Shown here: positions 13,374 through 39,600 of the stretch, piece by piece
Position numbering within the stretch: the stretch's first letter is position 1
Layout of the letters: each line of letters opens with the position of its first letter
NCBI GenBank assembly: GCA_965279035.1
Contig: CBDIHM010000003.1
Span: 32,001-96,000, forward strand
Length of the DNA stretch: 64,000 nucleotides
Source: Bacteroidia bacterium
GTDB taxonomy: Bacteria; Bacteroidota; Bacteroidia; M30B66
Direction: 5' to 3'
The notes under the pieces: generated by a model
What the model was told of the DNA's origin: nothing
The model's database searches: none
The model's input: only the letters and a program-made list of their open reading frames with translations
Position numbers and translations under genes: made by a program

Positions 13374-14148
13374 TCAATACATCACAATATTTTCTTTATT
13401 GCTAAAACTAAAAGAGCTTTATTCTGTTTAGAGCGAATTCTCTGTAGAGTCTGACAAAATTTTCTAGATTAGGTTCATTTCTGAAATTCTCGATTTATCG
13501 CCATTTTTTTATCCATATTCTTCGAGGAGCTCCATTAATTGATTTGCCTACTCTTCATCTAATTATTGGAGAAATGTTTTCAGTTCGCTATCATTAGGAT
13601 CTTCATCATTAATAATGCTTATATCAGTATCTTGTGTTTAATTAGATACTAATGAACACCTTTTACTTGTTTTAATAATATTATTCATAAATGGATTTTA
13701 GAATTATTATTAAGAATTTTAAGGATTTAATTTTTTTAGTTATGCATTTTCAACTAACAGAGCATCAACTTAAACTTATAATTAATAGTTTTCTTGTTAT
13801 AACAAGTCCCTATTCTTTGTGACTTCAGTTAATGCATCAACATACTATTCTGATTGCATTTTTCCATAATACAAATCCATTTTCATAATATAATCTGTAT
13901 CCTTTGTGTAATAAAATTTTAAACTAATAAAAATACCCTTCTTTGAATCTTTTCCATTTCCCCTATCTATTTTAGAGCTTTATGATATTTAGTTTATATC
14001 TCAGTTATTTAATCTTTTAGTTTAGCTATATCTAGTCTTTAGGACGCATTGCATAGTTGAAGTTTGTGTACTATCTTTAGTGATTTTAAATTTATACTTC
14101 TCTTAATTATGTTTCTGTTAATCCTAACAACTACTTTTTTTATTTCAT
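13374..14148 (-). CDS. Hypothetical coiled-coil protein
   Basis: Open frame in the ciliate code with the heptad stretch 'DLLQQENYQLQVQVDALLVENAQLKK'; one short intron; TGA 13374-13376. Confidence 0.55.
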
Positions 14149-14165
14149 AAAATATTTTTTAATAA

Positions 14166-15217: not shown

Positions 15218-15274
15218 TTCTAGATTTTTTAAGTTTTTAAAGATAATTAAGGATAAAACTTTTTTTTTAAAAAA

Positions 15275-16498
15275 TCATTATATCAGACATCCTTCACCGT
15301 GTGGATTTTGTTTTTTTAAACATTCAGCACAAATATCAAAATCACATTATCTACACTGTAATGCTCTCTTGTCCATCATTTCTGAATCATCCCTATTACA
15401 AACATCACATATATATCCTCCACTATTTCTTTCATTAATTTAATGACCTGCAGGACAATGTGATGGTTTCTTATTAGTGATTCTAAATTATGGTGGTGCA
15501 CATTTCATACAAAAATAACTTTTACATTATACACATAAGTATCTACATATTGTTTTTTAGAGGCAATTCTCACATATTTATTTGCTGGCCTCGATGCCTG
15601 GAGCCAACCAAAATTAGAGGTTGTGCATTTTAGAGCATCTTAATTTGGAAGGCTCACAAAGACTTCCGCTTTTAGGAAATGGCTGGTTATTTATTAATTT
15701 TTGTGATCCAGCCATAGGTATAAATTAAGCTTCTTGTTATGGTAATGGTACTGATTAGTTCATATTTGGATATGGTGGAAATTTTTATTATTAAACGATT
15801 TAAATAGGAGATTATTTATTTTGTTGTTGAGGAACTTATTATATAATTATAGAACTTTCTTATTTTTGTTGAATGATTTAGGAATTTTATTATAATTCTT
15901 AGATTTAAGACTATTACAATTATGACATTGTTAGAAACTATTATTTCAATTCTTTGAGTTCCTATTTTAATTACCTGATGCAATCATGTTTTTAGATATC
16001 GACTTTCTAAATATCACATTCACATTTTTGGCATATAATGACTGTAACTTTCTGACAACCATATTACTATTCAATTTAAAAAATATAGATTTTACATGAT
16101 TTAATAGATCTACTTCAAGACCTTACCATTAGCAACCTGCAACACAGTGGGTGGTCTTAAACTTACATTCATTCTGATGTGACTTTATTGACTCATACAT
16201 TATAGTAACTTTGCATCCAAATTATCTATTTCTACAATATAATTTTATTTTTGATAATTCTATTCTGATCATTCGATGAGCTTGTTTTGTAAAAAACTTT
16301 CCAGCACATCTATTCGGACATCTTGTGTTAATAATAAGAATACTCATCTTTCTTAACAACCCAATCACCTATACATTGAGAACAGAAAAGATTCTCACAG
16401 CTTTTACATTCGAGGGGTTCAATAACTAGAAGAGTGCAAATGCCACAACACAGGTTATCAGGTACATCTTCAATTGGTTCAAAGTCATTTCGATCCAT
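15275..16498 (-). CDS. RING + TRAF-type zinc-finger protein with Q/P-rich linker, Cys-rich fingers and CaaX end, paralog A
   Basis: CGICTLLVIEPLECKSCENLFCSQC..CPNRC; CRNRQFGC; 'YICDVC...CRQCDFDICAEC'; terminates GEGCLIQ-TGA. Confidence 0.82.
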
Positions 16499-16535
16499 TT
16501 ATACAAAAAAAAATAATAAAATAATAATAAAAATT

Positions 16536-17963
16536 TCATTTTAATTTATCTTTTAGAAGTATTAGTTAATCTCTGATAAATTTTATGCAATTTTTTATTA
16601 TAACTTCTTTTCTTTCATTTGTTATCACCTATATATAAGCTACGATTTTGTTTGAAGTTGATTTTTAAGTAATTAAAGCATCATCAATCCACTTAGCATT
16701 ATTTAAATTTTTTAAGTCATTAAGTTTTTGCGAATGCTCAACCTTATACTATGTAATCTATTACTAGATAATATATCTTAATTCTAGAGTTAACTTAGCT
16801 GATTCTTTCAAAATATGAAATTTTTAGAGATATTTTAAGGATTCTTATAATATGGATTGCTCTTAAATATCAATCTATTAACTTGAGAGTTCATTATATG
16901 CTGCTTGTACTATATCTTTATATTCTTTAATTTCAAGAATTCCAAAATTGGAAATACATTTCTCACAACCAAACTAGGTTTCTTTATTTGTTGGCATTCT
17001 ATATCTAATCAACAAATGATGATAGGGACAATACTTGAAATCACTTTCCGGTTATTAAAATACTTATGTGGTTTCCAAATTACTGAAAGTGGAAATGTCT
17101 TATGCGAAATATCTATCATTATTTTAAAACTTCTATTCCTAGATTGGACTATCAATCTAATATTCATTCAATTTAGCGACTATAAAATCTAAATCCTTTC
17201 TCTGTTTTGGATCTTTATTGAGACATCCATTCAAAACATTTTTTATTATTTCTTTCCTTCTCTCGAATATATTTGCTTATTAGTATTCTTTATTTCTAAT
17301 TTAATAATTTTCAACTTTTATTTTATAATGGACCTCTTCCTCGCTCTTACCGTTAAAAAATGGAGTCCCATGAATTAATTCATCCAAAATAAGTCCCATA
17401 GCCCATATGTCAACACTTTTGTTATAACCAAATCCCTCCAATATTTCTGGTGCAACATAATAAGCTGTTCCTACACCTTAAGTAGTCATTCTGTCCGATT
17501 TTATAGAACTTAATCCAAAATCAGTAATTTTATAAATTTCCTCATTTTATTCGAATTATCTTAGTATGTTTTCTGGTTTAATATCTCTATGTACAATGTT
17601 TTATTGATGTAAAAATTATAATCCTTTAGCCACTTATGTAATTATATTAACGATCTTTTATTCATCTATCTTATTTCTTAACAACATCATTTCGAACAAA
17701 CTCCCACCAGTGCAATATTCAAGGAATATAAACAAAACACTACCAGATTCAAATATATCTAGAATTTTAATGACATTTCTATGGCTAATAGATTTGAGGG
17801 ATTTTAAAACATTTTTTTCTTATTACGATATTTATGAGTTTCTATTTGAAATCTTGACGGCAACTTTTTAGTTATCAATTTTTCTTATAGCTAGAAAAAC
17901 TTATGAAAATGCTCCTTACCCTATTAATTAACTAGTAATTTCATAATATTCCTCATATTTCAT
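16536..17963 (-). CDS. Ser/Thr protein kinase (ULK/ATG1-like catalytic domain)
   Basis: GQGAFSQV, VAVK, LEYCTGGSL, HRDIKPEN, TDFGLS, GTAYYVAPE and DIWAMG motifs. Confidence 0.88.
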
Positions 17964-18005
17964 TATTTTAATATAATTTTTTTTTTCTTTTTTTTCTTAT
18001 ATATA

Positions 18006-20285
18006 TCATTAAACTGTTTGAACAGCCAATTTTATTAGATGGTCTGTAAAAATCTTCAAACTTGCATCATCAGTTATATAATTGCCGCTCTCCACATTCT
18101 AATTCTAAACTGTATTAACTGATGGATTGACTCTGCTCTTAATATACCTTTCATGACCATGTCCATAATATGTCTTTATCAATCTTGGCACTGGGAATCT
18201 ATCTTCCATTATTAACTTTATAAAATTAATTAATGAATACCTTAACATCTTCAAATGGTGTATCCAAAAGCTCTTTAATATGAGCATATTCAGGCAATTC
18301 GTGATATCCTTCTTCTTTCCATTTTTGTACATTCTCACCATACCACACAACAACATTGAAGTAAGAGTCTAATAGTAATGCCACATCTGGTTTCAGGCTT
18401 TCAATATCTAGCATAACTGGTGATGGTTGAGGATCCTCTATCGTATATTATAGCAATGCAGGTTGAATCATTACTAAAGCATTTGTTACATTTTCTCTTG
18501 ATAAAGAAGCTCTATAAAATGTTGTTTCATCTGGTGATGCACCAAATGTAGTTATGAAATGACTTCTTCTTAAATGATACATGAATTGAGGATATAATTG
18601 AAATTCTGCTTGAATTTTAAAAGATGAAGGGTCATCCTTTTTGTAAGTTCCAAACCTACTCACCAATCTAATTAATGATCTATCGAGCCATTTTAGGACT
18701 TCTATTGATTCCTCAGTTTCAGTCTTACTAATTCCTAATCTGGCCATAAGTACACAAGCAGCTTCTTAATCAAATCCCTTCGCTAATTCATTATTAGTTT
18801 AAGCATCTGCGAATTTCCTCATTATAGTTGTGACTCTCAATCTCTAAACTCTACTTGAATGTCGATATAGTGTGATAAATTAAACAAATGCATGCGTACT
18901 ATTCGACTAATCCTTATTTGGGGCTAAATCTAAAATAAACAGTATAGTGGAATTCCTATCTAAACCACCTGCATACCAACTAGTTGTACCTCCTTCTCCT
19001 ATGATTTGCTCAGAAGCCATAGGTCCTTATTTCTTAAGGGAGATGCATGGGCCAATCGCTCCTTATATCTTAATGTCTTTTGATGCAAACATATCAATTC
19101 TGGATCCAAAACCCATTTTAAGAAAACCTTGAGAGTCCCTATCAAACAACTTTTTGTAAGATTCCCTAAAGACATCGCTATCGAATTTTTCCTGCATAAC
19201 CACAACTCCTCCAGTTTTCTCAGCTAAAAATTTCATTTCCAACAATCCAAATTAATCTAATGTGAATGCAAAAATATCGATAGTGAGATTTGACTTTATA
19301 GCTTTTTGTGTCAATTCATTATAAAATTTCTTGGCCTTACTCATATATTAGGTGTTGGGAGCTTCTTTCTAAATGTCAAGATAAGACCTTATAGTTTCCT
19401 CATAAAACTATCCTACAATTTATCCAGGACCTATCGTACAGGGTCCTCCTGCAAAGAATAGAATTTTCGAATATTAAGATGCATATTCTAAGATGATGCT
19501 ACCAATTTTTAATGCTGCACCATTAGCTCTCAATTCTCTCTATCCTGATGGAACAGGCCATGGATCAACTTACAAATCATCTAATATCGAATTGAATGAG
19601 AATTCACATTCACTCAAAGGGACTAAAAATCTGCTTATGATATCTGTCTTGTTTGTAATTTGTAACATATCTATAATTTATTATGGTTAGTAATCTTTTG
19701 ACATAAAACTATAACATTTTGGACATTCCTCATATCCAAGTTCATGAACAAAAACTGTTCTTCCATAAGTAATCAATCCCACTTAAGTATCTGGAGGAAT
19801 AATTGATAAGCTCTATTAGATAGCATCTCTAATTGCATATAATTCTTCTTTTGTTACACATGTATCGATAATATATAAAAATGATGCAGGAGTTGTTTAT
19901 TAATTGGCTAAAATATATTCGATTGTTGTTGATTAGGGTTATTTTTCAGCTGGTAATTATTATTCTGTAATGTGATCAGCATAATTTTTGGGGAATGGAT
20001 TTCTCATTGAACAAAATATACAAATCCATTGCTTATTTCTATAATCAACTTAACAATATGGATTTAAAATTGATCCACATCTACAATAAAGTGGCGAATA
20101 CTCGACAACTACTAGATTCTCTAGATCTTTCATGGGTGCTATTTATTAGAAAAATATAAATTACAATAGAAAACACCTATTGGCACAACAGCTCGAGTAA
20201 GCTAAACCTTCGTTGATGGTAGATTATTCCATGACATTCGAACAGCATCTTTAGATTCTAAACCATAAAAGTCTAATTGTTGCAT
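18006..20285 (-). CDS. SEC23: COPII coat subunit Sec23
   Basis: VRMSWN, zinc finger (CGSILNPYC...WICIFC), GGVVVM..FD, GFDQEAACVLMAR, WLDRSLIRL, YPQFMYHLRRS and TDDASL..F..HL..LAV. Confidence 0.97.
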
Positions 20286-20324
20286 TAGGGACACGTAATT
20301 CTTATAATAATAAAAAATTAGAAA

Positions 20325-21497
20325 TCAAATTTTTCTCTTAAACATAGCAATAAAAAATCCATCAGTTTCTCCTGGAAATATTCTGACATAGTTTTTATTA
20401 TCTATGCCACGTGTCTCCCATTCAGGGAATAAATTTATTACCATCCAATTAGGATTTTCAATTATAAATTAATTGGCGACGATTTCATTCTCCTCCTTAT
20501 AAATTGAGCAAGTTGAGTAAATGATTCTTTTTAATTTTGGAAACTTAGTCAAATGATTCAGCAAATTCAATTACAAATACTGTAAATTCTATACTTGTTC
20601 TACTTTATCAAATGGAACACTCAAATCCACATCATTTAGTCCTTCTACAACTCTCTACTTAATCATACCACTTCCAGAACATGAGGGATCTAAAAGGGCT
20701 AATTTAACATTCGGATAATCTAAAGGATTAACATCCAAGAAATCCATATTAAATGTTTTGACATCACAATTATATTTTTAAAGCCTATTGTTTAATAGAT
20801 TAAATCTCTGATAATCCTTTTCTATTGCAAATAGGGTTCCTTCTACTTGTTTTAATTTCATATATTAAGATAACTAAATTGTCTTATTTCCAGGAGCAGA
20901 ACAACAATCGATAATATCAAATTTCATGTTTTGCTTCTTGATACTTCTCATTAATAAGAATGCAGGCAATGCACTGGATTTACTTTACACAACATAATTG
21001 TTTGATTTTAAAAAATCGGGATTATCCTTAATAAACTATGAATATATTTCATAATCCACCTTTACTAGGTTGGGGACATGTTCGTCTAACATTCCAAATA
21101 AAGGTTGAGTGTTCTCAAAAAATCTAACATATATAGTTTTAGATTATTTGTCATAAATATGATAAAAATTTAGCAAACTAGTAATTAATGTATGGTGTTT
21201 TTTCAAATATTTAGATATTTAACCTCCAATTTTTTTAGCCTTTCTATTATTAGGATTAAATATTTCTAAAATCAATATGATAAGTAGATTGTGATCATTA
21301 ATTTAAAAGTAATCCAATTCCATTAATTATCTTATAATTTCTTATAAATAGTTGAAGTTCTACATAGCTTTATGAAGGAGGGCATAAGATTATTAAACAA
21401 ACTTTTCATCATTTGATTTGAAAACAATTGATTTAAGACTTTATTTAGTTGTTACTACCTTGGTTAAGAGCTTGCTTAATTATGAATATTTATTCAT
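20325..21497 (-). CDS. NSUN5: NOL1/NOP2/Sun-family RNA m5C methyltransferase (NSUN5/Rcm1-like)
   Basis: QSKSSALPA, DCCSAPGNKT, LLDPSCSGSG, IYSTCSIYKEENE and TDGFFIAMF motifs. Confidence 0.88.
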
Positions 21498-21513
21498 ATT
21501 TTTTTTTTAATAA

Positions 21514-22151
21514 TCATTTTGGATTGGCTAATATTCCTCTGAACGTCTTCACTCCACCAAATGCAATATTAATTCTCTCCTTCTTGGGTTAATTTTTCTC
21601 ATAAGATTATGATCTTCCTACTGGTTCTAAGATTGGAGACTTCATAGGTTAGCATGCTGGAGTATTGAACTTTTGATTTTTTTTTTTTAAATATATATAC
21701 TTTTGACTTTGACTTCAAACTAACTTGACCACCTTCTTCTTTAATCTTCTATTTCTCCATTTTCTCTATCTTTTTATCTCTTTCCTTCTAAGCATCAATG
21801 ATGAAGTTCTTCAAAATCAAACTATCCCTAACAATTTTTGAAGAATTCAGATTCCTAAAAAAACTATCAAGTTATTATCTTCTATGTTCTATTAATTCTG
21901 GGTTGGCATTAGTATTTCTCCACCATTATGTTCCAGGAAATTTTGGCAATTAAACTTTAAGTGTTTCTAACTATTCATTCAGTCTCTTTAAATCACTATA
22001 TCTATATTCTACAGTAAAATTGTATCCCCTCTAAAGTTCCTCTAGACTTTTTAGGTCTTATATATAAATAATACTTCAATTGATAGTGTACGACATCGTC
22101 TTATTTTTTAAATGAAGGCACTGTGATTAAAATTGATGCATTTTCTTACAT
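21514..22151 (-). CDS. PX-domain protein
   Basis: 'VHYQL...TVEYRYSDLKRLNEQL...LPKFPGTQWW...IEHRRQQLDSFF' matches the PX consensus; two short introns. Confidence 0.8.
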
Positions 22152-22164
22152 AAATAATATAAAA

Positions 22165-25100
22165 TCATTAAACTAAAATATTTGTTAATCTATGAATGCT
22201 TTGATATTCTTAAAGTAGGGATTTTATCTTTGCTTAAATAAATGTTTATACCTCAAATGCCATATTGGTTCCAAAATTAACTTTTATATCATGAAGCTTC
22301 ATATCAATTTGTAAAGCATAGCATTTTACATCACTAATGGCATCGAAATCATATGATTAAACAATCACTTTGGATGAATTAATTAAATTCAAACCTCTAT
22401 GGTTTATGCCTATAATTAATAATACAAAATTACCTAAATACATATTAGCATAAATAGTAACAGATAACTTATCATGAAATGTCTTTAACACTTATTAATT
22501 AACATCAACATAATATAAGGTTGTTCCAAATAACTATTTTGTCATAATGAAACTTAGAAACTATTATAAGGCCAAAGGTAATTTTTCTGTATATTAAGAT
22601 TACTTCATCTCATCTAAAACACATAGTTTATGGATCTATTTTTTTATTTATTCGATCTAAAGCTATATATTTTCGAACCAAACAAAATCACTCTACAATT
22701 TTAGAATGTGGGGTGGTATAATTTTTTAGTAGTTCTCCTTAATGCCTTATCCCTTATAAATGTTATAATCATATTCTTTGATTATGTTATAGTATGCACA
22801 TACTAGAAAGTACTCAAATTTTGACAATAAATACTTATCTTTATTGATTTCATCAAAAACTTAATATGATATTAATCTCATTCGTTATATTTGCTATTTA
22901 AAATCACCAGATTTAAAGTCAGCTAATTCCTACCCTGGTTATAAGAATAAAAATTTCTTAAGATATAGATTTTTTTCAGTAACTGTTTTTAGGTATTTAG
23001 TTACTGTCTAAAATAATCCTTTAACAGAGCCTCTTGGTTGTGGTTAATTTTATTGATTATGAAACTGACTTAATGGTTCGTCCTAATCTACTAATGTGCA
23101 ATCTTGAAAAGAATCCCCCAGAAATAATCTAAAGTCAACACATGATGTTAGGCATAAATGTTATGCCACCTTATTGACTAACTCAAAACTTCTTGTACTA
23201 CTCTTAAAACCAAATTCGATTCGTTACCCATCAGCTAGATCAACATGCCATTTATGTTCACATAATTAAGCTTATTCCCCGAATTCTATTGAATTTTCAT
23301 TAGCAACTTCATAGAAAGTACTCCTATTCTCCATTTGATTTAGATTTTCTAATAGAATGGTGCCTTTCCTGCTTGCCAAAACTTCTTATTGATTTGATTT
23401 GACAGATGTGAACTTTGATTACATGATGTTCTACATAACTTAGCTATGATTTAACGATTATCTATTTGTATTTTTTAATTTATCAGGTAAATCATAAAAG
23501 TTCTCGTCGATACTTAATAATTTTAAAACCTTTCTTTAATACTATTCGTCATTCATAATTTTCTTAGAATTTAAAACAAGCTACAAAAATTGCTATATCA
23601 CTATCATTCTATCATTCAGTAATTTAGGATTAGTTGTTCAGCCAATTAGAACTAGATAAATGAGGAGGTTAGAGTTCTTTATCGAATTATCTAACCAATT
23701 TTTCTAATTCCTATATTTGGCTATATCTAACAAATATCTTCAATTGTATTTAATCAATTGTAATTAAAGTAATATAGACAGTATATCTTTTTATGGAACT
23801 AGGATTCCGTATATCTGTACCTTTCACGTCTACTCTTATTTGTTGTTTCTATTATTTATCAGATTTTAATTATCTAATCTAATCTCTCTAAAATAATTGT
23901 TATATTATTTTTTCTAATTTAATTTTAAGTTCTTTTCTCTATTCATCTTTATCGAACGTAAATACTAAACATTAATTGTATGATAAAATCTCTAATAGAT
24001 TCTGTTTAAATTGATTATCTTCTTTCTCATATACTTTAGTAAACGATGATATTACCAGATGGTTCTAATATTTATAATTACATTCTCCAGATTTTGTGAG
24101 TAGCAATAAATTATTAAAAGCATATAAAATTATAGGTATATCCTGTTTATCATGATATAACTAACATGTTTCTTCAAATATGAACTCTCTGTTTGCCTCT
24201 GCTATTTGTACATAGCCACAGTAAAGATTATGCAATTCAAATGTTTTAAGTTATCCCAATTGCTTGCTCATCTTCTCATTATTATCATTATTGATTATTT
24301 CAAATTTCTTTAAACACTTAACTATGTTTTCATAGTCCAAATGAAAGGTTTCAGTATGTTTTAACAAATCTTTATAAAGTAGTACATATTTAGGTAACCT
24401 TTATACAGGCTTAACAAGAAAACTATGGATATCTAATCCTCTTAAAACATTTGATTTTCTCAATTGTTGCATAAGTGTGGCATATTGTTTATCCTTTTCA
24501 TATTATTCTATTGTTTTCGAAGATTATTTAAACTCATTGCAATAGTCGTAATAAACTTTGAAGCCATCAAGATATGGTATTATTTTACCCATTATATCCT
24601 TTTATTTATCTTGAAAAGCTCCCTATAAAGTTGACAGGATAATTTAATTGAAAGTATGAATTGTTTAAATGTTGTTAAATATCTTCTTCATATCAAATTG
24701 ATTTACAAATTTAGACATAGGTTTCATAATATAATTTATAACTATAGCTAAATCTTAAACATACCTGTCCTCGGTGTCAATGATCTCCTTAATAACAAAC
24801 TATCTGTGCCTACTTCTCTTCATCATAATTTTGAATCTCTTTTTAAATAATTTATTTCGAAAAAATCTTTAAATCATTATAATTTTCTTTAATTGTTGAT
24901 AGAAATAAGCATCCTGCCTAACCAAAACCGGCATTTATGATTTATTCATAAAAATAACCTAACTCGAATATTTCATTTCTTATGTAGTCATCCTTATGGA
25001 TTTATGAATTTCAGCATTCTAATATTACTTCTACTCTAACTCTAATTACTTGCTCCTGGTACGAACACTCATCAACAAATAGTTAGATTTGTTTATCTTT

Positions 25101-26317
25101 GTATCTTAAAGCTCATCAAACTAGATGTTAGAGCTTACAATATCCTGTTGTTCTGATTAATCATCATCTCCATCACTTTCGGCCAAGGTTATTTCAACCT
25201 CACCTAATGTTCTTTTGCTTACTAATAATTGAAACGATGTTTGCTATCTGAATAAGGGTTCAGGCTGCTATTCTTATTAGGATTATTTCTCAATACTTTC
25301 CGCTAAGACCTTTTCTTATTCATCATATTCATCACTATTTGCTAATGGATTTCCGTAGATTTTTTGTTCTGGCTTTTAAATTATTTATTGTATTTCTGCA
25401 GTTTTATCTTCTAATTTATTTATATTATATTATCCTGATTAATTTATATTTTAGTCTGTATTATTTTTATCGATTGCTTCAGAGATTTCTTATTCTAGGC
25501 CTTACTACTATAAATTTGAAGTCTATTGCTCAGCGATTTCTTACTTTAATAAACTTACATCATTTTCATTTATATCATTTTAAATTTATAATGGTAATAT
25601 CTAAGGCTCCTATTATAATTTTAATTATTTTTGCTCTTATTACTAGATACTTTCATTAATTATATTTTTATAATTAAAAGTGGATAATTATTTTATTGAT
25701 TGTTATAGATCTTGTCCAATTTATGAATCAATTTAATCATTTTATTCCTCTTCCTGTTGGTTATCGTTATCATCCTCTGACCCACTATCGATTATTACCG
25801 CTTTATAAGTACTCTGTAAAATATTTTAACTTTATTTTATACTCAACTACATCTGACTTGGTATATTATATAAATTATCTCTTCTAGATAGATAATCATA
25901 ACTATTTGATGATAATAAACTTTTCTATGATTTCTCTTATTATTAATCTAAATCATTATATTCCTTCTATTATTCATCTTATTCTAACTAAATTGGCTTA
26001 ATAATCTCTTATTGTAAAATTACATCTTATGGAATCTAATCATTTTTTATTTCTGCTGATATAGATTCCTCATTACAATCAACTTACCTTGCAGCTAGCT
26101 TTTATTTCAATTAGTTCATAAATTGCTAAGATTGAGCTAAAGCTTATAAATTTTATTTTTATTGTGGAATTGAATCATGCTCTTGTTTTTAAGTTTGATT
26201 AAACTCATCTTTAAGATTTTATTAATCACCCTTATCAATTTGTCTAGTAATAGCATCATTCTGAATGATTATAATTTTTTAAGCATCAGCTTCCTACAAT
26301 TCCTTATTTATTTACAT
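22165..26317 (-). CDS. Large RhoGEF (DH-PH) protein with IQ, PX and FERM-like regions; apparent 1-nt frameshift near 23630
   Basis: IQ-like 'IMIQRFFR'; DH 'IKEIIDTEDRYVQDL...FLVKPVQRLPKYVLLYKDLLKHT'; PX 'YTVY...VRYSQ...PPHL'; FERM-like 'VDLADGQRIEF...VAQHLCL...FRLF...YLKKFLF'. Confidence 0.75.
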
Positions 26318-26355
26318 TAAATTATATAATATTGTTTTTAACGATCAAAAAAAGA

Positions 26356-27210
<855 letters not shown>

Positions 27211-27642
27211 ACAGCAGGTCTGCCCTTGTCCTGAGGAGACCAACCTCCCATGGGTCAGTGTGCAGGCCAGCTGCAAGCATGAGCGCGCTCTCAGACCCAG
27301 TGAGACTCATAACTCTGAGAAAGAGTCCCCATAGTGCGATTGATTATTGTTCTGAACCCTTGGCCATGGCACAGAAGAAAGTTGGCTGAGCAATGAGTGC
27401 ATTCATGCCCCTTTTGTATGTGCTGGCAACTGCAGCTTCCAAGCAGGTCAGCCAATCTTCTCATCCTGATAGCCTTTGGCAGCGGCTTGAAGGAGAGCAG
27501 AATCACATCTCACTCTTGCAGAATTCCGCATCTGCTGGAGAGCCGCAGCCTCCAGTTAGTGGCCGTGTTACTTAAAGCTTGGCTCCTGTGATTAAGTTGG
27601 ACACTGATGTGAAGCTCTCTCCATCTTTTCTGTGCCCTGCAG

Positions 27643-30600
27643 CAATACTGGGCGGACACGGCGAAGCCATACGACTTTGTGCCGGTCGCGCAATTCGCAG
27701 CGGCGTTTGAGGCGAGTGAGCGCGGCCGTGCGCTGGCGGCAGCCGCCAGGGACCCCCCGGTCCTGGGCAAGGCATGCGCTGAGATGGACCCGCTCGTGCG
27801 CACCAGGTTCTGCGCGTTCCCTGCTGACCTTATCATCTAGGGCCATTTTATCACGGTCATTTAGGGTCTTTGCTGTATTTTGCATTGGGTAGCTGACATT
27901 TTGGAACAGGAAATGCAAGGCAAACGCTGAACCCCATAAATTTGCATTAAGTCTGCGTATTAAAGTGAATATTCACTTTGATCTGTTTACTTACACTTGT
28001 GTGCTGTCTGTGTGCAGGTATGCGCTGGGCGCTTTCCAGATGTTCAGGTGCGCGCATTTCTGCCCCGCTGATATCAAGTGTCCTTTTCATATGGAAACTT
28101 CCAATGTATAGAAGGATCCATACTCCAGAGCTTAAAGCACTATCCTCTCGGGCTCTCTCGGCATCTTATTAGATTCGGCAGGCATCAGAGCTCTGTAGCA
28201 CCCACCTGCTGTGTATAGATGACCATCCTTGAAATTCCCTGTCCAAGCCTTTGACATTTCTTCCAGTCCTCTGAAATGCCAAGCCATGTGCTGCCTGGTA
28301 GCAAGACTTCCACCATCCTGCATGATAACATTTATGGGGACAAAATCGTTATTATTCACACTTTTCCAGCCTTCCAAGGCTGGGTGCGCTCCATCAGCTT
28401 TTCTACAGAGTTCGCCCAAAATTCCCTGCCTTTACATTTTCTCCAGAACAGAATGTTGCAAAATTAAGGCAATGGCTTCACTGACTGCGCAGGGCGCTGG
28501 GCCAGCGGGAGGGTGTGCTGATGCTGCGCCACGCGTTCACCTACAAGTTCCGCACCGCCCAGAACCTGTTTGTGGCATTCGTGGCCGGCACGCTGTTTGC
28601 CAAGCCCACCATGCACACCGACACTGCCGCCGACGCCATCAAATTCTCCGGCGTCCTCTTCTTCGCGCTGGTGAGCGCCGTGCCCTTTTCAAAAAGACCG
28701 CCAAATGCCAAAAAGCCTATTTGTCATGGATATGCAAAGTTCTCCTCCTGCTTTTTGGACTGAAATGACACTGTTGAAAGATGGGGATCATTTTGCTGGT
28801 GAGCGCTGTAGTCTGTCAGGAGCGCTAATGTGCCATTAAGCCCATCTGGCATAGATGTGCAAAGTTCTCATGTTCCTTGTTGTGGCTCAAGTTGGAATGG
28901 AACGACAATGTTGAAAGATAGGGGATCGTTTTGCTGGTGAGCGCTGTGCTCTGTTATGGACCACCAGAAAGCCCATTTGGCATAAATGAGCGGTGCTCTC
29001 CTGCTCTCTGTTGTGGCTCGATGTGAATTGCTGATAATGGCATCAACAAATGAGTACTTCTTCCCGCAGAGTCTGACAAGTGCTTTTTTTTGCTTGCAGG
29101 TGCAAATGCTCTTTGACGGTGAGCTGCTCAGCGACTTCTCAACTCTGGCGTCACATTCACAAATAGGCCCTCTCCGATCTGGCCATGTGCTGTCCTTGAT
29201 AATCAACGTCTTAGCTTTGCAATCTACCACATACAACCCAACCCAGGCTGGCTGTGACCTTCTTGCAAGTTTCACACTACTGGGCATGGACGGTGATAGT
29301 CTGAGGGAGCTGAAGCACGTGCGCAGGCTTCTCGGAGATGAGCATGCTGATAGAGTCTCTGCCGGACTTCTACAAGCAGCGCGACAACCTCTTCTACCCG
29401 GCTGTGAGTCCAAAATCTTTTTTATTGTATGCATGGCCTTAGTGCAGAGTGTCTGAGTTGCCACGGTATGTGCCAGTGTGTCAGGTTGGACGGGTTGCCG
29501 CATGCACCAGAATGCTAGCTGATGACATGTTCCTGCTTTCATGTGTCAAAGGAGACAACTGTCTTCTATGACCTTGAATATTTCGGTGTTCCTACATGGC
29601 CTGTCTGCAGAGTGTCAAGCTGCCAAGTGCACCATAACGCTACCTTATACCATGTCCCTACTCTCATCTGATATAGCTGTCCATTCCAGCATTACTGCCA
29701 GATAGGCTGTCGGACAGGCTATGAGTCCCTGCACGGCCTCTCTGCACAGATTTCAGCTGCCACGTGCAACAGAGTGCCAGCTTATACCCTTTTCCTGCTT
29801 TCATGTGTCATGGGAGGTAGCTGTCCAATGTTCAGAGCGTCAAGTTGCCTTTAGCATCAGATGGTCAGCTCATGATATGGCCCTGCTTCCACATTGGGTA
29901 GGGTTGAGTGGCCACTGGCTTCCATTTGTCAAGGGCGATAGCTGTCATCTACCGTGACCGGGGTGTTTCTCTGCGCTCATGCTGAATGTCAGTTTGCCAC
30001 ATACTACAGAACTACAGCTCAACAGGGCGTCTCTGCTCCCTATCTCAAGGGAGAGCTGTCCATGTGACTAGGGTGCCAAAGTTCAGGGTGCAGGGTTTAG
30101 AGTTTATATAAACCAAAATATATGGAAGAGGAAAATGTGTGCGTGCAGTGGGCTTTTGCGCTGCCAGTGACGCTGCTGCGCATCCCCTACTCGCTGGTGG
30201 AGTCCTTCGTCTGGTCCATCATCATCTACTGGTCTGTCGGCCTCGCACCCTCTGCCGCCAGGTCAGCGCGTGACTCCTCCATACCTATTACTTTATGTAA
30301 GATATGTATGCATGGCAGATCTTTGCAGGAGGGCAATCATCACTTCCTGCAGATTCCCCAAACCCATGAGTAATACATTATTTATTAATTAATATTATTT
30401 TAATTGTTATTTACTTTATTTCTTGTTTTTATTATTATTAATATTATTATTTTTATTTGTTGAATATATTTTATTATATCAAACTGTATTTATATTTTTC
30501 CTAAATTTTTTATTTTGAGGTTTAGGGCTTAGGGTTGGGTGCGTAGGACCGGCCTATTCTGATGTGAAAACTCGGCTTCCGAATTAACTGCTTGTGATGT

Positions 30601-33600
30601 TTTCACTCCGAGCTCTCACTTTCCATGCCTGGCAGTGATGCAACAGGTTGCGCCTCCTCCAGAAGGCATGGGTTGCATGCAATACTTTGAACTGTGACCC
30701 TTACAGCGCATCACAATCCTGGGTGCCTGCTCCCTTCAGCAAGTGTTGTGGAGTGGAATTTCCATGCGTGCTGCAAATTCTTTGTGATGGTCTCGCGGCA
30801 GGGAACTTTGATCTGTGAGCCTTAAAGTGATGCTTCGTGAACTTGGCTGCCAGGTTCCTTCAGCGAGTGTTGAGGAGTGGCAATCGCGTGCGGGCTGCAG
30901 AGTGCTATAGATTCCAGGCTGCCACACTGTCTGAATTCGGGCATTGTGTGCATGCTGCAGGTTCTTTGTGTTCTGGCTGCTGTGCCTGCTGTCGCACCAG
31001 GTGGCCATCAACCTGTTCAGGCTCATCGGCGCCATCGGCCGCTCGGTCGTCATCGCCTTCAACCTGGCCTGGGTCGTCTTCATCCTCATCATGCTCCTCT
31101 GCGGATACACCCTCGTCAAACGTAAATACCCCTCACCTTGGTCCCTGGGTTATCACTAGTCCGCATTTTGCGTGTTTCTGTACTCAGACTTGACGTTGCT
31201 GTGAGTGCACAGCAAAGTCCCTCCAACAAGCATGCCCTGGTCATGCATCAAAAATGCATGATGAAAAGTATATTTGCTTTGAATGTCCTGCCCTGCTCTG
31301 CCGCTCTGTATTCTGTGTTTGGATTGTCCTCACTGCAAAGTCACCTGCTGTATTTGTAGCTACAGAGCATGCCCTGGAGACGCATGATGCGCTGATTGCG
31401 AGTGAGGAAGTGTTGGCCACAAAGCAACTCCTTTCAGGTGTTCTGTTGGCGATCAATGCGAAATCAACTGAAGTTGTGGCTTGATGTGTTGTGCAGCGGA
31501 CATCCCGCCGTGGTACGCGGGCGGCTACTGGGCGCTGCCGCTGCAGTGGCTCGTGAACGCCATCATCAACAACGAGTTCCAGGATGGTGAGCAATCCACT
31601 TTATTGCATCTTTTGGGCTGTCTTTCAGGCAGGTGCATGTTTCGCAAATGATTAAACGAAGGCTCTTTAGATCAAAAGTTCCATCTGGCTATCCATCCAC
31701 GCAGCGGCTTTCCAATTTTATCTGTCTAGCAGGGTGTTTTTGTTCATCCTGGGATTTTGCACGCTCTTGACAGAAACAGACCTCTCAAGACCATTCTGAG
31801 ACAGCGGCTCGGGCATTCCCTATATGCTAAATCATTATGCAATCAGCTTCCTCTCCAAATTACTTGACGGCCGGGCGCCAAAGCCGTACAGACCATTAGA
31901 AATGTGTGGCCACAATTGACCTAATTTTTTTTTCGACCACATTGGGGCCTTCAGAATTGCCTGTGAGCGAGGTTCAAATATTTTTCATTTTATTTTTTCA
32001 TTTTATTTTCATCTTGAAAGGGGTTTCAGGTTTCCCTAAACGTGAACCCTTAAATAAAATAAAATAAAAGTGAAACCTCTAAAAACCCTAGACTCTATCT
32101 GATGTGACTGCAGAGCGGTGGGCAAAACCGGACCCGGCCAACCCGGATCAGACGCTTGCGGAGTCGCTGTACCGGCAGTTTGCGTTCCACAAGGGATCGG
32201 TATGGATCTGGGCGGGCGTGGGCGTCGTGCTGGGCTGGATCGTGCTTCTCAACATCGCAACCACCCTCGCCCTCATGCTGCTGGACGGTGAGTCATCTTT
32301 CTCTGATGGAGTAACTCTATTTTGCATGTGTGTGGGCAGGTATGTGTTTGGTCTGTGGTAACCTGAAAACCCTAGATAAACATTAAATTTCGCAGCCATA
32401 GACGATGACAGTCCACTCATGCAGCCTTGACTGGCAGTGGGCGCCTGTAAGAGCGTGGTTCTAAGAGCGATCTAAGGACGCCGCAGCTATGTTTTTGGGT
32501 GTGGTAACACACTCACAGATATTTAGTTAGGCAAGTACAATTATCCAAGGTTGCACTCACAGTGTTCCAAGCATGCAATGACACTTAGGCTTTGCTGGCG
32601 GAGCCCGGACAGCCTGTGCTTCAAGGTTTAGCATCTCTTTTGAGATGTGACCCAACTGTCCATTTGTCTCAGAGCACATCTGGGCATACATGTTGTTCAG
32701 TAATTTAGGGTGTAGGCCGTTCTACAGTAAATACCCACAGTGTAGAATTAAGCAATCGTGTACCAACCGAGTGACAAAGCTTATTTGCTCTGTCAGCCCC
32801 GGACAAGAAGCCGGCTTCGATGCCTGAGGAGCTGCTGCACGAGCGTGAATTCACGCGCACCGGCAAGCGCCCGGCGCCATCGAAACATGCCGCTCCGGCC
32901 GCGGCCGCCGGCAACGGGCACAGCAGGGTTGCGCCTGCCGCGGCCAATGGATCTGATATTGAGATGGGCGTTCTACCCGAGGCAGCCGCTCTGCAGAGCA
33001 AGGTGCGCCATCGAAAATTTAAACTGGTGCAATCCCGCTGTATGTATGACGCTATCGTGACAGGAGGTTTGCAGACAGTTAGCTGGAAGCTGTGTTCCTA
33101 GCGTGCAAGCGACATCTCCTGATAAAGCGCAGTGCAAGACAAAACCACCTATAAGATAGCCGTGGCTTTGCTAGTCGAGGTTGGGCCGGCAGACACCTTC
33201 AGTTTGATGTTGGCTGACCCGCGCAGAGTCTACATTACCAGCAATACATTGACTGCGATATTCATTAAGACAGGAAAAGCGTGTGATACTGGTAAATAGA
33301 ATATTCTTAGTTAGGGTTTTGGTGTATTTAGGGTTGAATTACGAACCCTGAGTCATCGGGGGGAAAGTCAAAACATCTGTGTGTATGTGTGCAGGGGTCA
33401 GCACACGGTGCAGATGAGGTGGAGGCGTTGGCATCACGGCGGCGAACGGGCGTGGTGGCGAGCAGCAAGGGCATGGTGCTGCCCTTCCGCCCTCTCAGCC
33501 TGGCCTTCAGCCACGTCTACTACTCGGTCGACCTGCCACCCGTGCGCACCCTCATCTCGTATCTCTTGTGTGGTCTTGTTCTGAACTTTTGAGGCCAGAT

Positions 33601-36600
33601 ATATCTGCTATATCATGTAGGGTGTTTTGTTGTGCCAATTCTGAGCTTAAAATGGAAGGACTTCTCATAAATCCCAGTGAGCCTCACGTGTGCTAGCCTC
33701 ACATCCCAGCAAACAAACTCTTTGACAGGATATAAAGATAATCTCTTAATATGGCCTTGATTGTCTGACACAAATGTTTGGTTCGTCGTGCCATATGTGT
33801 CTGCCGGTTAGGATGCAGGCAAGGGCCTGAAGCAACACACTATCATGCTGATGTAGTAGACAAAGTGTATAGAATGTATCCAGACCTATTTAGATCATTA
33901 GATTACTGTTTATTTGAATTTTTATTTTTTATTCTATGAAATAGAGTTTAGGGTAACTGCATACCCTAAGAACTTAAAAACCCAAACCATGTGATTATGC
34001 GCAGGGCCACCCGGGCGCAGGCGAGACGGTGGAGGGCGTTTCTAAGCCGCAGCTGACGCTGCTGACGGACATCAGCGGCGCGTTCCGGCCGGGCGTGCTC
34101 ACCTGCCTCATGGGCGTGTCGGGGGCCGGCAAGACCACGCTCCTCGACCTGCTCGCCGGCCGCAAGACCGGTGCGCGCGCAGATTGCGTTGTGCTGCGAT
34201 GCATGTTCGACACGGTTCAGCAGCCCTGTGTTGAAAAGGCCATTGTTGCTGCAAGAGGGTGCTCGCCAGCCGCAAGACCGGTATCCGCTGCACCTGCCGT
34301 TGTGCTGCAGTGTGCATGCAAGATTTAACAGCCCTGACTAGCAGTTGGTCATGTTGCTGCAAAGGGTGCTTCCCAGAAACGGAAAGCAACCTTAGGGCGC
34401 TGCCGTGCGTTTAAATGTGGTGATGTGCTCACAAAATTCAGGCGGGGCAACGGCAAGCTTCATGATGGGATTCATTTGTTTCTTTCCGCAAAAGCAATAA
34501 CCCAACCACTTGAGAATACAGAGATCTTGGACCTCGAGTGAGTGTTGAGCTCGACATGGACAGCATGGTGCATTGAAAAAACAAAGAAAGCTGTCCATTT
34601 GACCCACAGGCGGCTTGGTGCGCGGCGCCATAACGGTAGACGGCCACCCCAAGGAGCAGGCCGCCTTCGCGCGAATCTCCGGCTACGTCGAACAGGTGCA
34701 AGGCACTCTGCTTCGCAACATTCCAATATTATTATTATTATTATCATTATTATTGTTATTGTTATCGTTATCATTAATACATTTACATAAAATAAAGCAT
34801 GCACTATGCTTCTATCAGAGAAAGTGTGCCTCTCCACTTAAAAGCACAGAACGAGTCGGCCCCTCCTCTGATGCATGCCCACTGCTAAAACGTAAAGCGA
34901 GGAAGCCGATGCCCTGCCCGCAAAAGTGAACAAGATTGAGTGCTCAGAATGTCCCGCTCTGATGTCGCACGCAGTTTGACATCCACTCGCCGGCAACAAC
35001 TGTGCGGGAGGCGCTGGCATTCAGCGCAGAGCTGCGACTGGCGGACGTCCAGCCAGCGCAGCTGCACAGCTTCGTCGACGAGGTATGATGAATGCTTTTT
35101 ATTACTGCTCACCAGACCTGTCACCTTGCTCGCGTGCTTCCACATTCGCGCCCAGTCAACAGCAGCTCCGAAGCGGATTTGAACCAACGACCTAACGGTA
35201 ACAGCCGTCCGCTCTACTACTGAGCTTTTAGAGATCCCTTTTCGAGGAGAATTGCACTAGGTTGAAGAATAATTTTTGTTTTTTAATGATACTTTTAGTC
35301 GGAGCCTTTCATTTTTCCCGCGTTACAAAGGTCGAGAGCAGTGAAACATTTTCTTAACTCATTAATCTGAGTCGAGCTCGAGCAACCGACTAAAATTACT
35401 AATTTAACATTTCACCCCTCCTCCCCCTCTGACCTTGCAGAGTTGCTTGTATCGTCAGCAAACAAATCAATGCTTTCTCAAGGGGAATCATGCATGTGTG
35501 CAGGTGATGGAGCTGATGGAGCTGGGCCCGCTGCGCAACGCGTTGGTGGGCGTGCCCGGCCGCAGCGGCCTCTCCGTCGAGCAGCGCAAGCGACTCACCA
35601 TTGGCGTAGAGCTGGTTGCCAACCCCTCTATCGTCTTCCTGGACGAACCCACCTCGGGTGCGCATGCTCACAGGGAAGATTTCGGGGAAGCCATAAACGA
35701 GCTTTCAGGCTGAGACCTTTCGGGAGACACCTGAGCAATATTGGTCTTGGCTTGAGGTCGCAAATTTGTAATGCGGGACTGGAGATTCTGCAGATAGATA
35801 CTGGATATGGCCATTGATTGCGCACATCAATTTTGACAGAGATTGCAAGTTTTGTGGGGCTGTAATGGCACCTCTGGTGCGCAGCCGCTCAGGGGAAAGC
35901 TGTCCACACTTGGATTGAGGCTCATTTAGAGACTGTACAAAGGTTGCAAGTTCTGTGGGGCTGGACTGGAGATGCTTCTACTAGAGCAATTATAATACAG
36001 CTCGCAGCACAATAAGCATGATTGGGATGGATGCACCAAGTTTTATGGCGCTCCAAAAGGCCTGCATTCTCAACGCTCACTGAGAGTGTTAAAATTATCG
36101 GTTGAGAAGCGTGTCCGCGTGAATTGTGTCTGCGTGAATTGTGTCCGCGTACATAGCCCACAGGGATCTTAATCAATAACGTCTCATTACTAAACACCTG
36201 TTGCACTGTGTCAGGGCTGGACGCGCGTGCGGCTGCGATAGTGATGCGCACGATCCGGAACACTGTCGACACCGGCCGAACCGTGGTCTGCACCATCCAC
36301 CAACCATCCATAGACATCTTCGAGGTGGGGCCTGCACTGACTTATATCTGCCCTATTATAGTGTAAAATAGTTTAATAAAATGTATTAAACAATGTAGGG
36401 TCACACAATATAAAGATATGTGTAACCCTCAAAATAGTGTTACCCAAAATCAAAAATATAGAGAAAAAGAATTATATACTCTAAATCTTAAATTCTAAAA
36501 GCAATGCCTGTCTGCCACAATGGACACATCTTTCCTAAATCTAAATTAACGGTTTGAAGCCCTTATATGACAATTTGCCTCATGTCACGCTAGCAAGGAT

Positions 36601-39600
36601 GGTGAAGACATAGATCTTCAAGCTTGAAAATCAGCACTACTTGACGTAAATTAGGCTTCCCTGGCTGGCAAAAATTAGCATAGCTTTCTAACTTGCTGCT
36701 ACCAAACATCTTTCCAGCAATGTGGACTCCAAAACTACAGAACCCACAGTACATTGTCCTTTTAGTAATTTCTGCTGACATAGTCCTTGTCTCCACCCCT
36801 CAGGCGTTTGATGAGCTGCTGCTGCTGAAGCGCGGAGGGCGAGTCATTTACGGCGGACCCACGGGCGACTGCTCGCGGCTTCTGGTCAGCTACTTCCAGG
36901 CCGTGCCGGGAGTGCCGCCCGTGTCAGCAGGGGTCAACCCAGCCACCTGGATGCTCGAGGTGCGTTGGTGCTGCATTCAAGGGAGATTTTGTGGGGTTGG
37001 TCTTTACTCGATGAGATTATTCTACCCTAGTGAGATGTTACAATGGTGTCATCTCTCTGAGCTGGGCATCTTGGCACGGTGGGGCACTCAGATTTACACC
37101 ACTGCAGTAGTACTTGTAAGTACTTGCAAGGCGCGCCCCAGTGCTGTGTGGATGTAGCGCCTCAAGAGGGAATGAGAAGAAGCTAAAGCAAAATGATTGT
37201 GGATGTATTTGCTTTGTTCTGTGACTTTGGGCTTGCTAATATAGCCTCTGGCTTCTCTTGGGCACTGGCTCTTCTCTCACTGTGCCTGGTGGGTAAATTG
37301 TGAACAAGGTGATTTTATTTTAGCTGGGCATTTGTTGTAGATAGCAGGTTTTACAGCAGCTTTGGTAATGCACAAAGGGGGAAGTCGGGCATAAGAGTAG
37401 TAGTTTTATAATAACCCTCTGTAACACATTTGTGCATGTGCCGGCAGGTGACGTCGCTGGGGTCTGAGCAGAAGCTGGGCGTGGATTTTTCTGAGCTGTA
37501 CACTCACTCCGATCTGGCCAGGTGCTCTTTCTGATGCCCAACCTGGCGCTGCATCCTGCGCTGGTGACAGGACCATATGCAGATAATTCTTAATTTACTG
37601 GTGTGATAAGTTTCGAGGCTGTGTTGTGAGCTGGCCAGGTACATTTCAAGGAAGCCAAACCCGGCCCTGCAATTGAAGTGGTTGCAGGGCTTCATGCTGA
37701 CCTCAAAAAAAATCAACAAAAATATAAGAAGCTTTCTAATTGTTCAAAAAATGGTTAAAGAATTACACCCTGGCTGGTTGCAATGGTGCATTCTTAGACA
37801 TACAACCATCTTATTTCTGGCTTCATCACAATTTCACGTCGTACTGGCAGCCGACCACCTTGATGCTGTGCTGAAGCTGGGGCATGATTCGTTTGGCAGG
37901 AGCACACAGGAGATGGTGGCGCGTCTGCAAGTGCCAGACCCCAACTCGCAGCCCCTGCACTTCGACAAGCAATTCTCGCGCAGCCTTCTTTCCCAGGTGA
38001 GCAAGATGACATTTTTTTATGGCTCCTTGGAAAAACAGCACAAAACCAATTGTCTGCAGACCACGCAATAGACCTTCATTGCATGCTTTTTTTGGCTGCC
38101 TGGAAAGGCGGCACCATGACCATGCAAGAGACCACCGGTCACCATGCTGCCTTTGCCCTAAGTGATTGGTTAAGATATCTCTGGCCCCTTATTTCTTTCA
38201 TTTGCCTGCAGTTCCGCCTCCTCCTCTTGAAGAACTTCACTGTCTACTGGCGCACACCCGAGTACAACGCCGTCAGGTGCGAGCATGTGCACATCCCATC
38301 CTCGCCTGCATGATTCCCTGTTTTGGGTTGTGTTGGTGTCAAAGACTCATGCCAGTTGGTAGTGGTAAGTGTCTTTATTTCTCTTTGTGGCAACCCTGAC
38401 AGTTCTGTCTGGGTTCAACAGGATGTTGTCAACCACGCTGCTGGGCCTCCTGTTCGGCTCCATTTATTGGCACATTGGCGGTCGAAGGTGCGCTCGCTCT
38501 TGGAAGGGTCCATGAGTGATTACTTGCTTCGGCAGCCTTCTGAATGTCGCTGAGAGTTGAATCCAATTTGATGAGAATATATCTAGCCAATATAGCCTTT
38601 GCTTCTGTAGCATGATCAAACATTTCAATTTCTTTGGCATGGTTTTCCAGCATTTTTTTGATATTGCCTCCTTTCACGGCAGGATCCAAAACAGTTGCTT
38701 ATCTTCCTCTTGAGCAGTGTCTTGAATGGATATTAGTAGTTTTGCCACATCCTTGTCACAGGAAATGTTCTCATACTCTGCCTCTTCTTGTGCGCGCAGG
38801 GACAACGCGCAGACCATCCAGAACATTATCGGCGCACTTGTTGTCTCCGCAATGTTCATCGGCACCTCCAACGCGTCCACTGTGCAGCCGGTTGTGGACA
38901 CTGAACGCACCGTCTTCTACAGGTCTGCAGCGAGCAAAATGAGCTCTATCACTGAGTGATTCATCTGGAAAATGATTTTATGTTAATTCTTGATTCTCAT
39001 GTCTTCCTCAGGTGCAAAGTGGTAATTTTTGCCTGGTGTGTCTAAGATCTTTCACTGCTTAAAGATCTTTCACTGCTTGAAGATTAAGCGCCGCATGAAT
39101 GGGTTACTAGCTGCCTAGTAGGCCTCTCTTCGCTTCTTGCTTTTTCTATCAGGTACTCATTTGTTTGTTTGAGTCAAGCTGAAATAGAAGGACCCTAGTG
39201 GATCACATGTCTCAGAGGGTGTGAAAAGGCATTTGTGGGTTTCGCAGGGAGCGTGCAGCCGGGTACTACTCGGAGTACCCATTCGCGGCCGCGCAAGCCA
39301 TCGTGGAGCTGCCATACCTGCTCGTCCAGTCCATCCTCTTCTCGTGCGCACCCACTCTCCACATTTCTTTGCTGGCAGAATTGCTGTGCATTTTCGGCCT
39401 GATTTTGTTTTCCCTTTATCTGCAGCTTGTCTGGAGACGCACGTTGCCTCTGGCAGGGAATAGCGTGTGGTAAATTTAGTATTAAAACACATTTTAGATT
39501 CTTTTGGGAGCCACCTGAGGGTCATTGGTCTTGTAGGCAGTCTGTCGCTACCCATCCTCATATGAAAAATTTGTTTATATTTCTCATGTGTCTGCATCCT

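What the first reader, a model, noticed from the sequence alone, without database searches (positions are those of the whole stretch)
27195..27225. Ciliate-to-green-alga junction inside a kinase gene
Seen: at ...ATCACTATTGATTA|CAGCAGG... the sequence switches within a few bases from AT-rich ciliate-code DNA with ~25-nt introns to ~50% GC standard-code DNA with long introns. Genes on both sides are cut: the SNF1-like kinase lacks its last helix and stop, and the PDR transporter lacks NBD1. No telomere repeats, TIRs or target duplication are visible. Known: Paramecium bursaria hosts trebouxiophyte algae, so such DNAs can co-occur in one sample. Inference: most likely an assembly or concatenation chimera; a genuine symbiont-to-host insertion is possible but much less likely.
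Basis: partly seen in the sequence, partly recalled or inferred. Interest (0 to 1): 0.8.

Follow-up and report, generated by a model that had tools for sequence, protein, structure and literature searches.

The report
Artefactual ciliate–alga sequence join
The abrupt switch from Paramecium DNA to Coccomyxa green-alga DNA is a false join made when the sequence was assembled or put together, not a natural insertion, so it has no biological meaning.

Summary
At 27,211|27,212 the window switches from about 27% GC ciliate-code DNA to about 49% GC standard-code DNA. The left side is Paramecium-like: a SNF1-related kinase, 81-83% identical to a P. octaurelia protein, cut at about residue 267 of 620. 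The right side is Coccomyxa subellipsoidea-like: a PDR/ABCG gene lacking its first 349 codons, cut inside an intron.

The join itself has no support. I laid independent contigs from two runs of the probable source sample (X1, X2). No listed contig bridges it. The ciliate contig continues past 27,211 with the rest of the kinase motif. The alga contig continues 1,536 nt upstream of 27,212 with other sequence. Depth drops 16- to 22-fold exactly at the join.

- A related ciliate (X8) holds only the left half and also continues the kinase.
- A mine-drainage metagenome (X5) and contig JADEYI010000215.1 hold only the alga half, at 99.9% identity, with the intact PDR 5' part upstream.
- The join is blunt: no shared bases, telomere repeats, terminal repeats or N.

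Verdict: an artefact, either a chimeric contig or a concatenation. It is not a real feature.

The parts
1..27211 (.). Paramecium-like (ciliate nuclear code) DNA, about 27% GC, carrying ordinary genes: protein kinase 16536-18002(-), Sec23 18151-20358(-), RsmB/F-type methyltransferase 20325-21545(-), RhoGEF 23612-26341(-)
   Evidence: GC profile. Long frames open only with TAA/TAG=Q (8-95 such codons each). Pfam hits at E 1.9e-23 to 4.2e-62. Held at 97.6-98.7% identity by run X8 of a second, differently labelled organism.
26359..27211 (+). 5' part of a SNF1-related protein kinase gene, in three exon pieces (about 26359-26424, 26456-26647, 26679-27211), cut off inside the last catalytic subdomain
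   Evidence: tblastn with P0121 (P. octaurelia, 620 aa) matches residues 1-25, 26-89 and 91-267. BLASTP gives 81% identity over 183 aa. Contigs of X1, X2 and X8 run on past 27,211; read by hand in frame, they give QMRLHPWFNL, against EQMKAHPWFNL in P0121.
27211..27212 (.). The blunt join between the two unrelated DNAs
   Evidence: Left contigs stop fitting at 27,211 and right contigs start fitting at 27,212. No base is shared (tables 7 and 8; window/L001 comparison).
27212..41311 (+). 3' part of a Coccomyxa PDR-type (full-size ABCG) transporter gene. It starts inside the intron that follows codon 349 and runs to the TGA stop
   Evidence: P0001 'putative pleiotropic drug resistance protein 3 [Coccomyxa subellipsoidea C-169]': residues 349-1292 map to 27640-41308 in 24 pieces, 9 of them at 100% identity. 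ABC2_membrane hits on two of the four window pieces scanned. Stop codon seen.
27212..64000 (.). Coccomyxa-like green-alga nuclear DNA, about 49% GC, standard code, many introns
   Evidence: GC profile. 27212-38675 is 99.913% identical to JADEYI010000215.1 (L001). 27212-33209 is held by a mine-drainage metagenome contig with 8 differences. The part from 38676 to 64000 is assigned by composition; within it only the PDR exons up to 41,308 were matched.

Best explanation
The join at 27,211|27,212 is not a structure of any organism's genome. Two unrelated DNAs were present in one sample: abundant Paramecium macronuclear-type DNA and much rarer Coccomyxa nuclear DNA. They were put end to end by a technical step.

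That step was one of two. Either a chimeric molecule or read (a ligation or amplification chimera) was carried into a contig by the assembler, or two separate records were written one after the other without a spacer when the sequence file or window was built. I rate the chimeric contig somewhat more likely than plain concatenation, about 55:45, and could not separate them.

Shown: both flanks continue differently in independent contigs, depth jumps at the join, and each half exists without the other elsewhere. Inferred: which technical step made the join.
For: Four runs of one sample (X1-X4) hold 0.99 of the sampled words of 25,200-29,200. I laid two of the four, X1 and X2.

(1) In both, none of the listed contig pieces bridges the join (25 pieces listed, 176 more not shown).
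- The left contigs (18,368 nt in X1; 4,817 nt in X2) fit up to 27,211 and then run on with other letters.
- The right contig (5,412 nt in both) fits from 27,212 and has 1,536 further letters upstream that are unlike the window.

(2) The letters that follow 27,211 in X1, X2 and X8, read by hand in the kinase frame with the ciliate code, give QMRLHPWFNL. This matches the continuation EQMKAHPWFNL of the Paramecium homologue P0121. X8 differs from X1/X2 at three bases of this stretch, all synonymous. So the kinase is intact in the real genomes.

(3) Word depth falls from 418 to 25.6 in X1 (16-fold) and from 1,702 to 78.5 in X2 (22-fold) exactly between the bins ending at 27,209 and starting at 27,210 (tables 2 and 8).

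(4) X8, a differently labelled organism, covers 21,210-27,211 at 97.6-98.7% identity and has essentially no cover to the right (depth 0-3.2).

(5) X5, a mine-drainage metagenome, has no cover to the left and one 8,434-nt contig over 27,212-33,209 with 8 differences. Its upstream letters equal those of L001.

(6) JADEYI010000215.1 (L001) equals window 27,212-38,675 at 99.913% and carries 8,727 further bases upstream. There, residues 1-349 of the PDR protein map (L001 3306-8431), including an ABC_tran Walker A hit. So the alga gene is whole elsewhere, and the window starts in its intron.

(7) The join is blunt. There is no shared base, telomere repeat, inverted repeat, target duplication or N.
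Against: - All four laid runs are Logan contigs, not raw reads. Contigs drop rare variants, so they show that the majority form lacks the join, not that no molecule has it (stated).
- 176 further contig pieces were not shown.
- X1-X4 may not be the data the record was assembled from. If a long-read set exists, I did not see it.
- A blunt join with no shared bases is unusual for graph- or overlap-based misassembly, which keeps plain concatenation in play.
- A 41-nt word spanning the join was not found in any of the three contig collections, so I could not inspect the original record.
Confidence: 0.95

Rival explanations
1. Genuine, fixed integration of Coccomyxa nuclear DNA (at least 37 kb) into a Paramecium chromosome, disrupting the kinase gene: a symbiont- or prey-to-host DNA transfer.
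For: Both DNAs are in the same runs X1-X4. Algae including Coccomyxa have been reported inside P. bursaria (introduction passages of PMC8005025).
Against: If the integration were fixed, depth would be equal on both sides. Instead it differs 16- to 22-fold.

The dominant ciliate contig continues with the intact kinase, and the alga contig continues with its own upstream exons.

The alga half is 99.9% identical to free-living environmental sequence and keeps its own composition, introns and code.

The related ciliate X8 lacks it. There are no integration signatures.
Confidence: 0.01
2. A real but rare molecule: alga DNA joined to ciliate DNA in a small fraction of macronuclear copies or cells, for example a repair product of ingested DNA. 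The assembler picked it up by chance.
For: Contigs cannot exclude rare variants (note). Blunt, homology-free joins are what end-joining repair would give; this rests on general knowledge, not a call.
Against: Nothing positive supports it. Ligation or amplification chimeras made during library preparation give the same blunt join and are common (general knowledge). No listed contig in X1 or X2 carries the join.
Confidence: 0.03

Closest known systems
Chimeric contigs or cross-organism misjoins in assemblies of mixed samples (host plus symbiont, prey or contaminant)
   Same: There is an abrupt change of composition, genetic code and intron style. Genes on both sides are truncated. Depth steps at the join. 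Each side continues differently in independent assemblies.
   Different: Misjoins made by assemblers usually sit in a shared repeat or k-mer. Here no base is shared, which points to a chimeric read or to plain concatenation.
Endosymbiont/prey-to-host nuclear DNA transfer (EGT/HGT)
   Same: Only the superficial picture matches: alga DNA next to host DNA.
   Different: Depth is unequal. An intact, undisrupted host allele is the dominant form. The 'insert' is near-identical to free-living alga DNA and not ameliorated. No second boundary lies within the window.
SNF1/AMPK-related protein kinases of Paramecium
   Same: The left-hand gene is 81% identical to a P. octaurelia kinase and 67% identical to a protein named 'SNF1-related protein kinase' of P. 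tetraurelia.
   Different: The window copy is truncated at residue 267 by the artefact. The real gene continues.
Plant/green-alga PDR (full-size ABCG) transporters
   Same: Exons are 79-100% identical to Coccomyxa subellipsoidea C-169 'pleiotropic drug resistance protein 3'. The next-best named hits are a second Coccomyxa protein and then land-plant PDR/ABCG proteins.
   Different: The window copy lacks codons 1-349 (NBD1) only because the sequence starts in an intron. L001 holds them.

Membership tests
Artefactual (chimeric or concatenated) join | No independent assembly of the same sample crosses the join | tested here: met
   in X1 and X2 no listed piece bridges 27,211|27,212. Loose ends sit at 27,211 (behind) in X1, X2 and X8, and at 27,212 (before) in X5. 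For the right-hand contigs of X1 and X2 the unmatched upstream letters follow from their record coordinates. 25 pieces were listed and 176 were not shown.
Artefactual (chimeric or concatenated) join | Depth discontinuity at the join | tested here: met
   418 against 25.6 in X1, and 1,702 against 78.5 in X2.
Artefactual (chimeric or concatenated) join | Each flank exists with a different, biologically sensible continuation elsewhere | tested here: met
   The kinase continues in X1, X2 and X8 (compared with P0121). The PDR 5' exons lie upstream in L001.
Artefactual (chimeric or concatenated) join | No raw read or read pair spans the join | not testable with these tools
   All holders are kept as contigs only.
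Real foreign-DNA integration (HGT/EGT) | Equal copy number of insert and flank in the host | tested here: not met
   16- to 22-fold depth difference.
Real foreign-DNA integration (HGT/EGT) | The join is present in independent data or in relatives | tested here: not met
   Absent from the listed contigs of X1, X2 and X8. A 41-nt word over the join has 0 matches in metagenome contigs, viral contigs and genome contigs.
Ciliate (Paramecium) nuclear DNA, left half | TAA/TAG read as glutamine, TGA the only stop, very short introns, low GC, best hits in Paramecium | tested here: met
   8 in-frame TAA/TAG in the kinase's last exon piece. Of the 6 inside the BLASTP alignment, 4 face Q in P0121, checked by eye. 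Gaps between the kinase exon pieces are 31 nt at most. GC is about 0.27. The top named hit is Paramecium.
Coccomyxa (Trebouxiophyceae) nuclear DNA, right half | Near-identity to a named Coccomyxa protein or sequence | tested here: met
   P0001 is named Coccomyxa subellipsoidea C-169 by its source; 9 of 24 pieces are 100% identical. The species name comes from the source's label. No marker gene such as rRNA lies in the window.
PDR / full-size ABCG transporter | NBD-TMD-NBD-TMD order with ABC_tran and ABC2_membrane domains | tested here: met
   The window holds TMD1-NBD2-TMD2 by collinear mapping of P0001 349-1292. L001 adds NBD1. P0001 has precomputed PF00005, PF01061, PF08370 and PF19055.

The most novel reading that the evidence does not exclude
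A small fraction of macronuclear copies, or of cells, of this Paramecium really carries Coccomyxa nuclear DNA joined by end-joining into the kinase gene. That would be a snapshot of alga-to-ciliate DNA transfer in progress. The contig data cannot see a rare form, so this is not strictly excluded.
Probability: 0.02. Interest if true: 0.7.

Novelty: not a real feature. Interest (0 to 1): 0.04.

Why it matters
It matters only as quality control. The record or window behind this sequence mixes two organisms. Its 27,211|27,212 join should not be read as horizontal transfer, and neither truncated gene should be annotated as a pseudogene or a fusion.

The alga half is ordinary Coccomyxa DNA, which also turns up in mine-drainage and biocrust metagenomes. 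It should be treated as co-sequenced symbiont, prey or contaminant DNA.

Tried and rejected
- No whole genome is held for the window.
- The record behind L001 is not held for the genome search. I therefore could not test collinearity of 38,676-64,000 with that contig.
- A 41-nt word across the join had 0 matches in metagenome contigs, viral contigs and genome contigs. The source record was not seen, and this says nothing either way about the record.
- No RNA holder was listed among the 24 runs.
Which half they hold is unknown.
- Telomere-like repeats: 3 one-mismatch matches against 1.06 expected, at 7,942, 10,495 and 55,358, none near the join.
- Repeats in 25,200-29,200: only short imperfect pairs, none framing the join.
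- Rfam gave one weak tRNA hit and ARAGORN found none. There is no rRNA for a marker-based taxon call.
- Pfam gave no family on 5 of the 10 exon-bearing frames and on 5 of the 10 frames.
- Rejected: a fixed real integration (depth and continuations) and a scaffold gap (no N).
- I considered, but could not test, that the very high and uneven depths reflect an amplified library, which would favour amplification chimeras.
- Species-level identity of the ciliate (P. bursaria or other) was not resolved.
- Supplements of papers were not consulted.
- Structure prediction, fold search, complex prediction and the protein atlas were not used, because nothing hinged on them.

Full report
**What is in the sequence**

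The window falls into two blocks. Every 1-kb bin from 1 to 27,000 has GC 0.23-0.34, and every bin from 27,001 to 64,000 has GC 0.41-0.55. In 50-nt steps the change lies between 27,175 and 27,225. The window holds no N.

**The left block is ciliate DNA of the genus Paramecium**

Long reading frames are open only when TAA and TAG are read as glutamine; the 25 frames of 250 aa or more carry 8-95 such codons each. Five of eight such frames scanned have ordinary Pfam domains: protein kinase, four Sec23 domains, an RsmB/F-type methyltransferase and RhoGEF. The other three have none.

The gene at the join has three exon pieces, about 26359-26424, 26456-26647 and 26679-27211, separated by at most 31 nt. 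Its last piece is 81% identical over 183 residues to a 620-aa protein labelled Paramecium octaurelia, P0121. Other named Paramecium proteins in the list of 120 score 61-70%, among them one called SNF1-related protein kinase of P. tetraurelia at 67%.

The alignment ends at residue 267 of P0121, inside ...DPKKRITVE|QMKAHPWFNL.... So the window copy lacks the end of the catalytic domain and some 350 further residues. I could not decide which Paramecium species this is.

**The right block is green-alga DNA**

An exon-bearing frame at 36,684-37,154 finds, as by far its best hit, P0001, labelled 'putative pleiotropic drug resistance protein 3 [Coccomyxa subellipsoidea C-169]'. It is 98% identical over the coding part. 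A second Coccomyxa protein follows at 81%, and then land-plant PDR/ABCG proteins.

tblastn places residues 349-1292 of P0001 in 24 collinear pieces on 27,640-41,308, nine of them at 100% identity. The last piece ends at a TGA stop. Residues 1-349 find nothing in the window.

**The alga locus is whole elsewhere**

A search of the metagenome contig collection with the exon at 28,485-28,676 returned one locus, L001, from contig JADEYI010000215.1 (103,784 nt). L001 equals window 27,212-38,675 at 99.913% (9 mismatches, 1 gap in 11,465), beginning exactly at window 27,212 = L001 8,728.

The 8,727 bases upstream in L001 are unlike the window. They carry residues 1-349 of P0001 in eleven pieces (L001 3306-8431), including a Walker A hit to ABC_tran. 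The window therefore starts inside the 724-nt intron between the exon pieces ending at L001 8431 and beginning at 9156.

Printed side by side, window and L001 are identical from 27,212 on and different at every aligned stretch before it, with no shared base at the boundary.

**The join has no support in the sample itself**

Four runs of one sample (X1-X4) hold 0.99 of the sampled words of 25,200-29,200. They are probably the source, so they are not independent evidence that the two DNAs belong together. I laid two of the four, X1 and X2, plus X5 (a mine-drainage metagenome, share 0.47) and X8 (a differently labelled organism, share 0.30), on 21,210-33,209. All are Logan contigs.

- **Left contigs.** In X1 an 18,368-nt contig (depth 418) fits 24,444-27,211 without a difference and then runs on with other letters. 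In X2 a 4,817-nt contig (depth 1,702) does the same.
- **Right contig.** In both runs a 5,412-nt contig (depth 25.6 and 78.5) fits from 27,212 and has 1,536 more letters upstream that do not fit the window.
- **Bridging.** None of the 25 listed pieces bridges the join; 176 pieces were not shown.
- **Depth.** It drops 16-fold (X1) and 22-fold (X2) exactly there.

Read by hand in the kinase frame with the ciliate code, the letters that follow 27,211 in X1 and X2 give QMRLHPWFNL. That is the expected continuation of the kinase (compare P0121).

**Each half exists without the other**

X8 covers the left half at 97.6-98.7% identity and has essentially nothing on the right (depth 0-3.2). Past 27,211 its contig encodes the same ten residues with three synonymous changes.

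X5 has nothing on the left. It has one 8,434-nt contig over 27,212-33,209 with 8 differences, and its upstream letters are those of L001.

**No mark of integration**

- No telomere-like repeat lies near the join.
- No inverted or direct repeat frames it.
- No microhomology is present.
- A 41-nt word across the join is absent from all three contig collections.

**Interpretation**

The dominant ciliate genome has an intact kinase at this place, the alga has an intact PDR gene, and the two DNAs differ 16- to 22-fold in abundance. The join is therefore technical. A blunt, homology-free join fits two causes: a chimeric read or molecule (ligation or amplification) that an assembler followed, or two records written end to end. 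I cannot tell these apart without the record or raw reads.

A fixed real insertion is contradicted by the depth step and the alternative continuations. A rare real molecule cannot be excluded by contigs, but nothing supports it.

**Context**

Passages in the introduction of PMC8005025 list Coccomyxa among algae reported from Paramecium bursaria. The alga could thus be a symbiont, but prey or a culture contaminant fit equally well. The same alga sequence at 99.9% in a mine-drainage metagenome shows it also lives free.

**Verdict**

- Observation: confirmed.
- Biological feature: none.
- Interest: low.

Noticed in passing
window 24957-25622 (RhoGEF ORF 23612-26344, minus strand): In X1 and X2 a minor contig form joins 24,957 to 25,622 with 9 other letters between them, at depth 13.5 against 418 and 40.3 against 1,702 (table 5c). 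About 664 nt of the glutamine-rich N-terminal part is thus replaced in roughly 2-3% of depth. It could be an allele, a paralogue or variable DNA elimination.
   Followed up: no
window 35164-35234 (-): A weak Rfam tRNA hit (31.4 bits, cut-off 29) lies between mapped PDR exon pieces of the alga, apparently in an intron. ARAGORN finds no tRNA in the window.
   Followed up: partly
window 43152-43940 and L001 1-756: An 85.7% identical stretch of about 790 nt in opposite orientation, some 16 kb downstream of the PDR start region. It looks like a dispersed repeat of the alga genome.
   Followed up: no
window 45785-46213, 48847-49467, 55722-56950 (minus strand): Several cysteine-rich frames share a motif resembling C..C...CW.C.Q..P...P..HFT, which by eye looks RBR/IBR-like, suggesting a small tandem gene family in the alga. 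Pfam at 1e-5 gave nothing for the two frames tried.
   Followed up: partly
window 28700-29030: Three imperfect direct copies of about 130 nt (65-77% identity) lie between mapped PDR exon pieces, apparently in an intron.
   Followed up: no
runs X1, X2 over window 21210-27211: Word depths of 418-1,800 come from runs of only 0.5-0.7 thousand million letters. That is far above even coverage of a macronuclear genome of tens of Mb (size recalled, not tested). It hints at a strongly uneven, possibly amplified, library, which would favour chimeric molecules.
   Followed up: no
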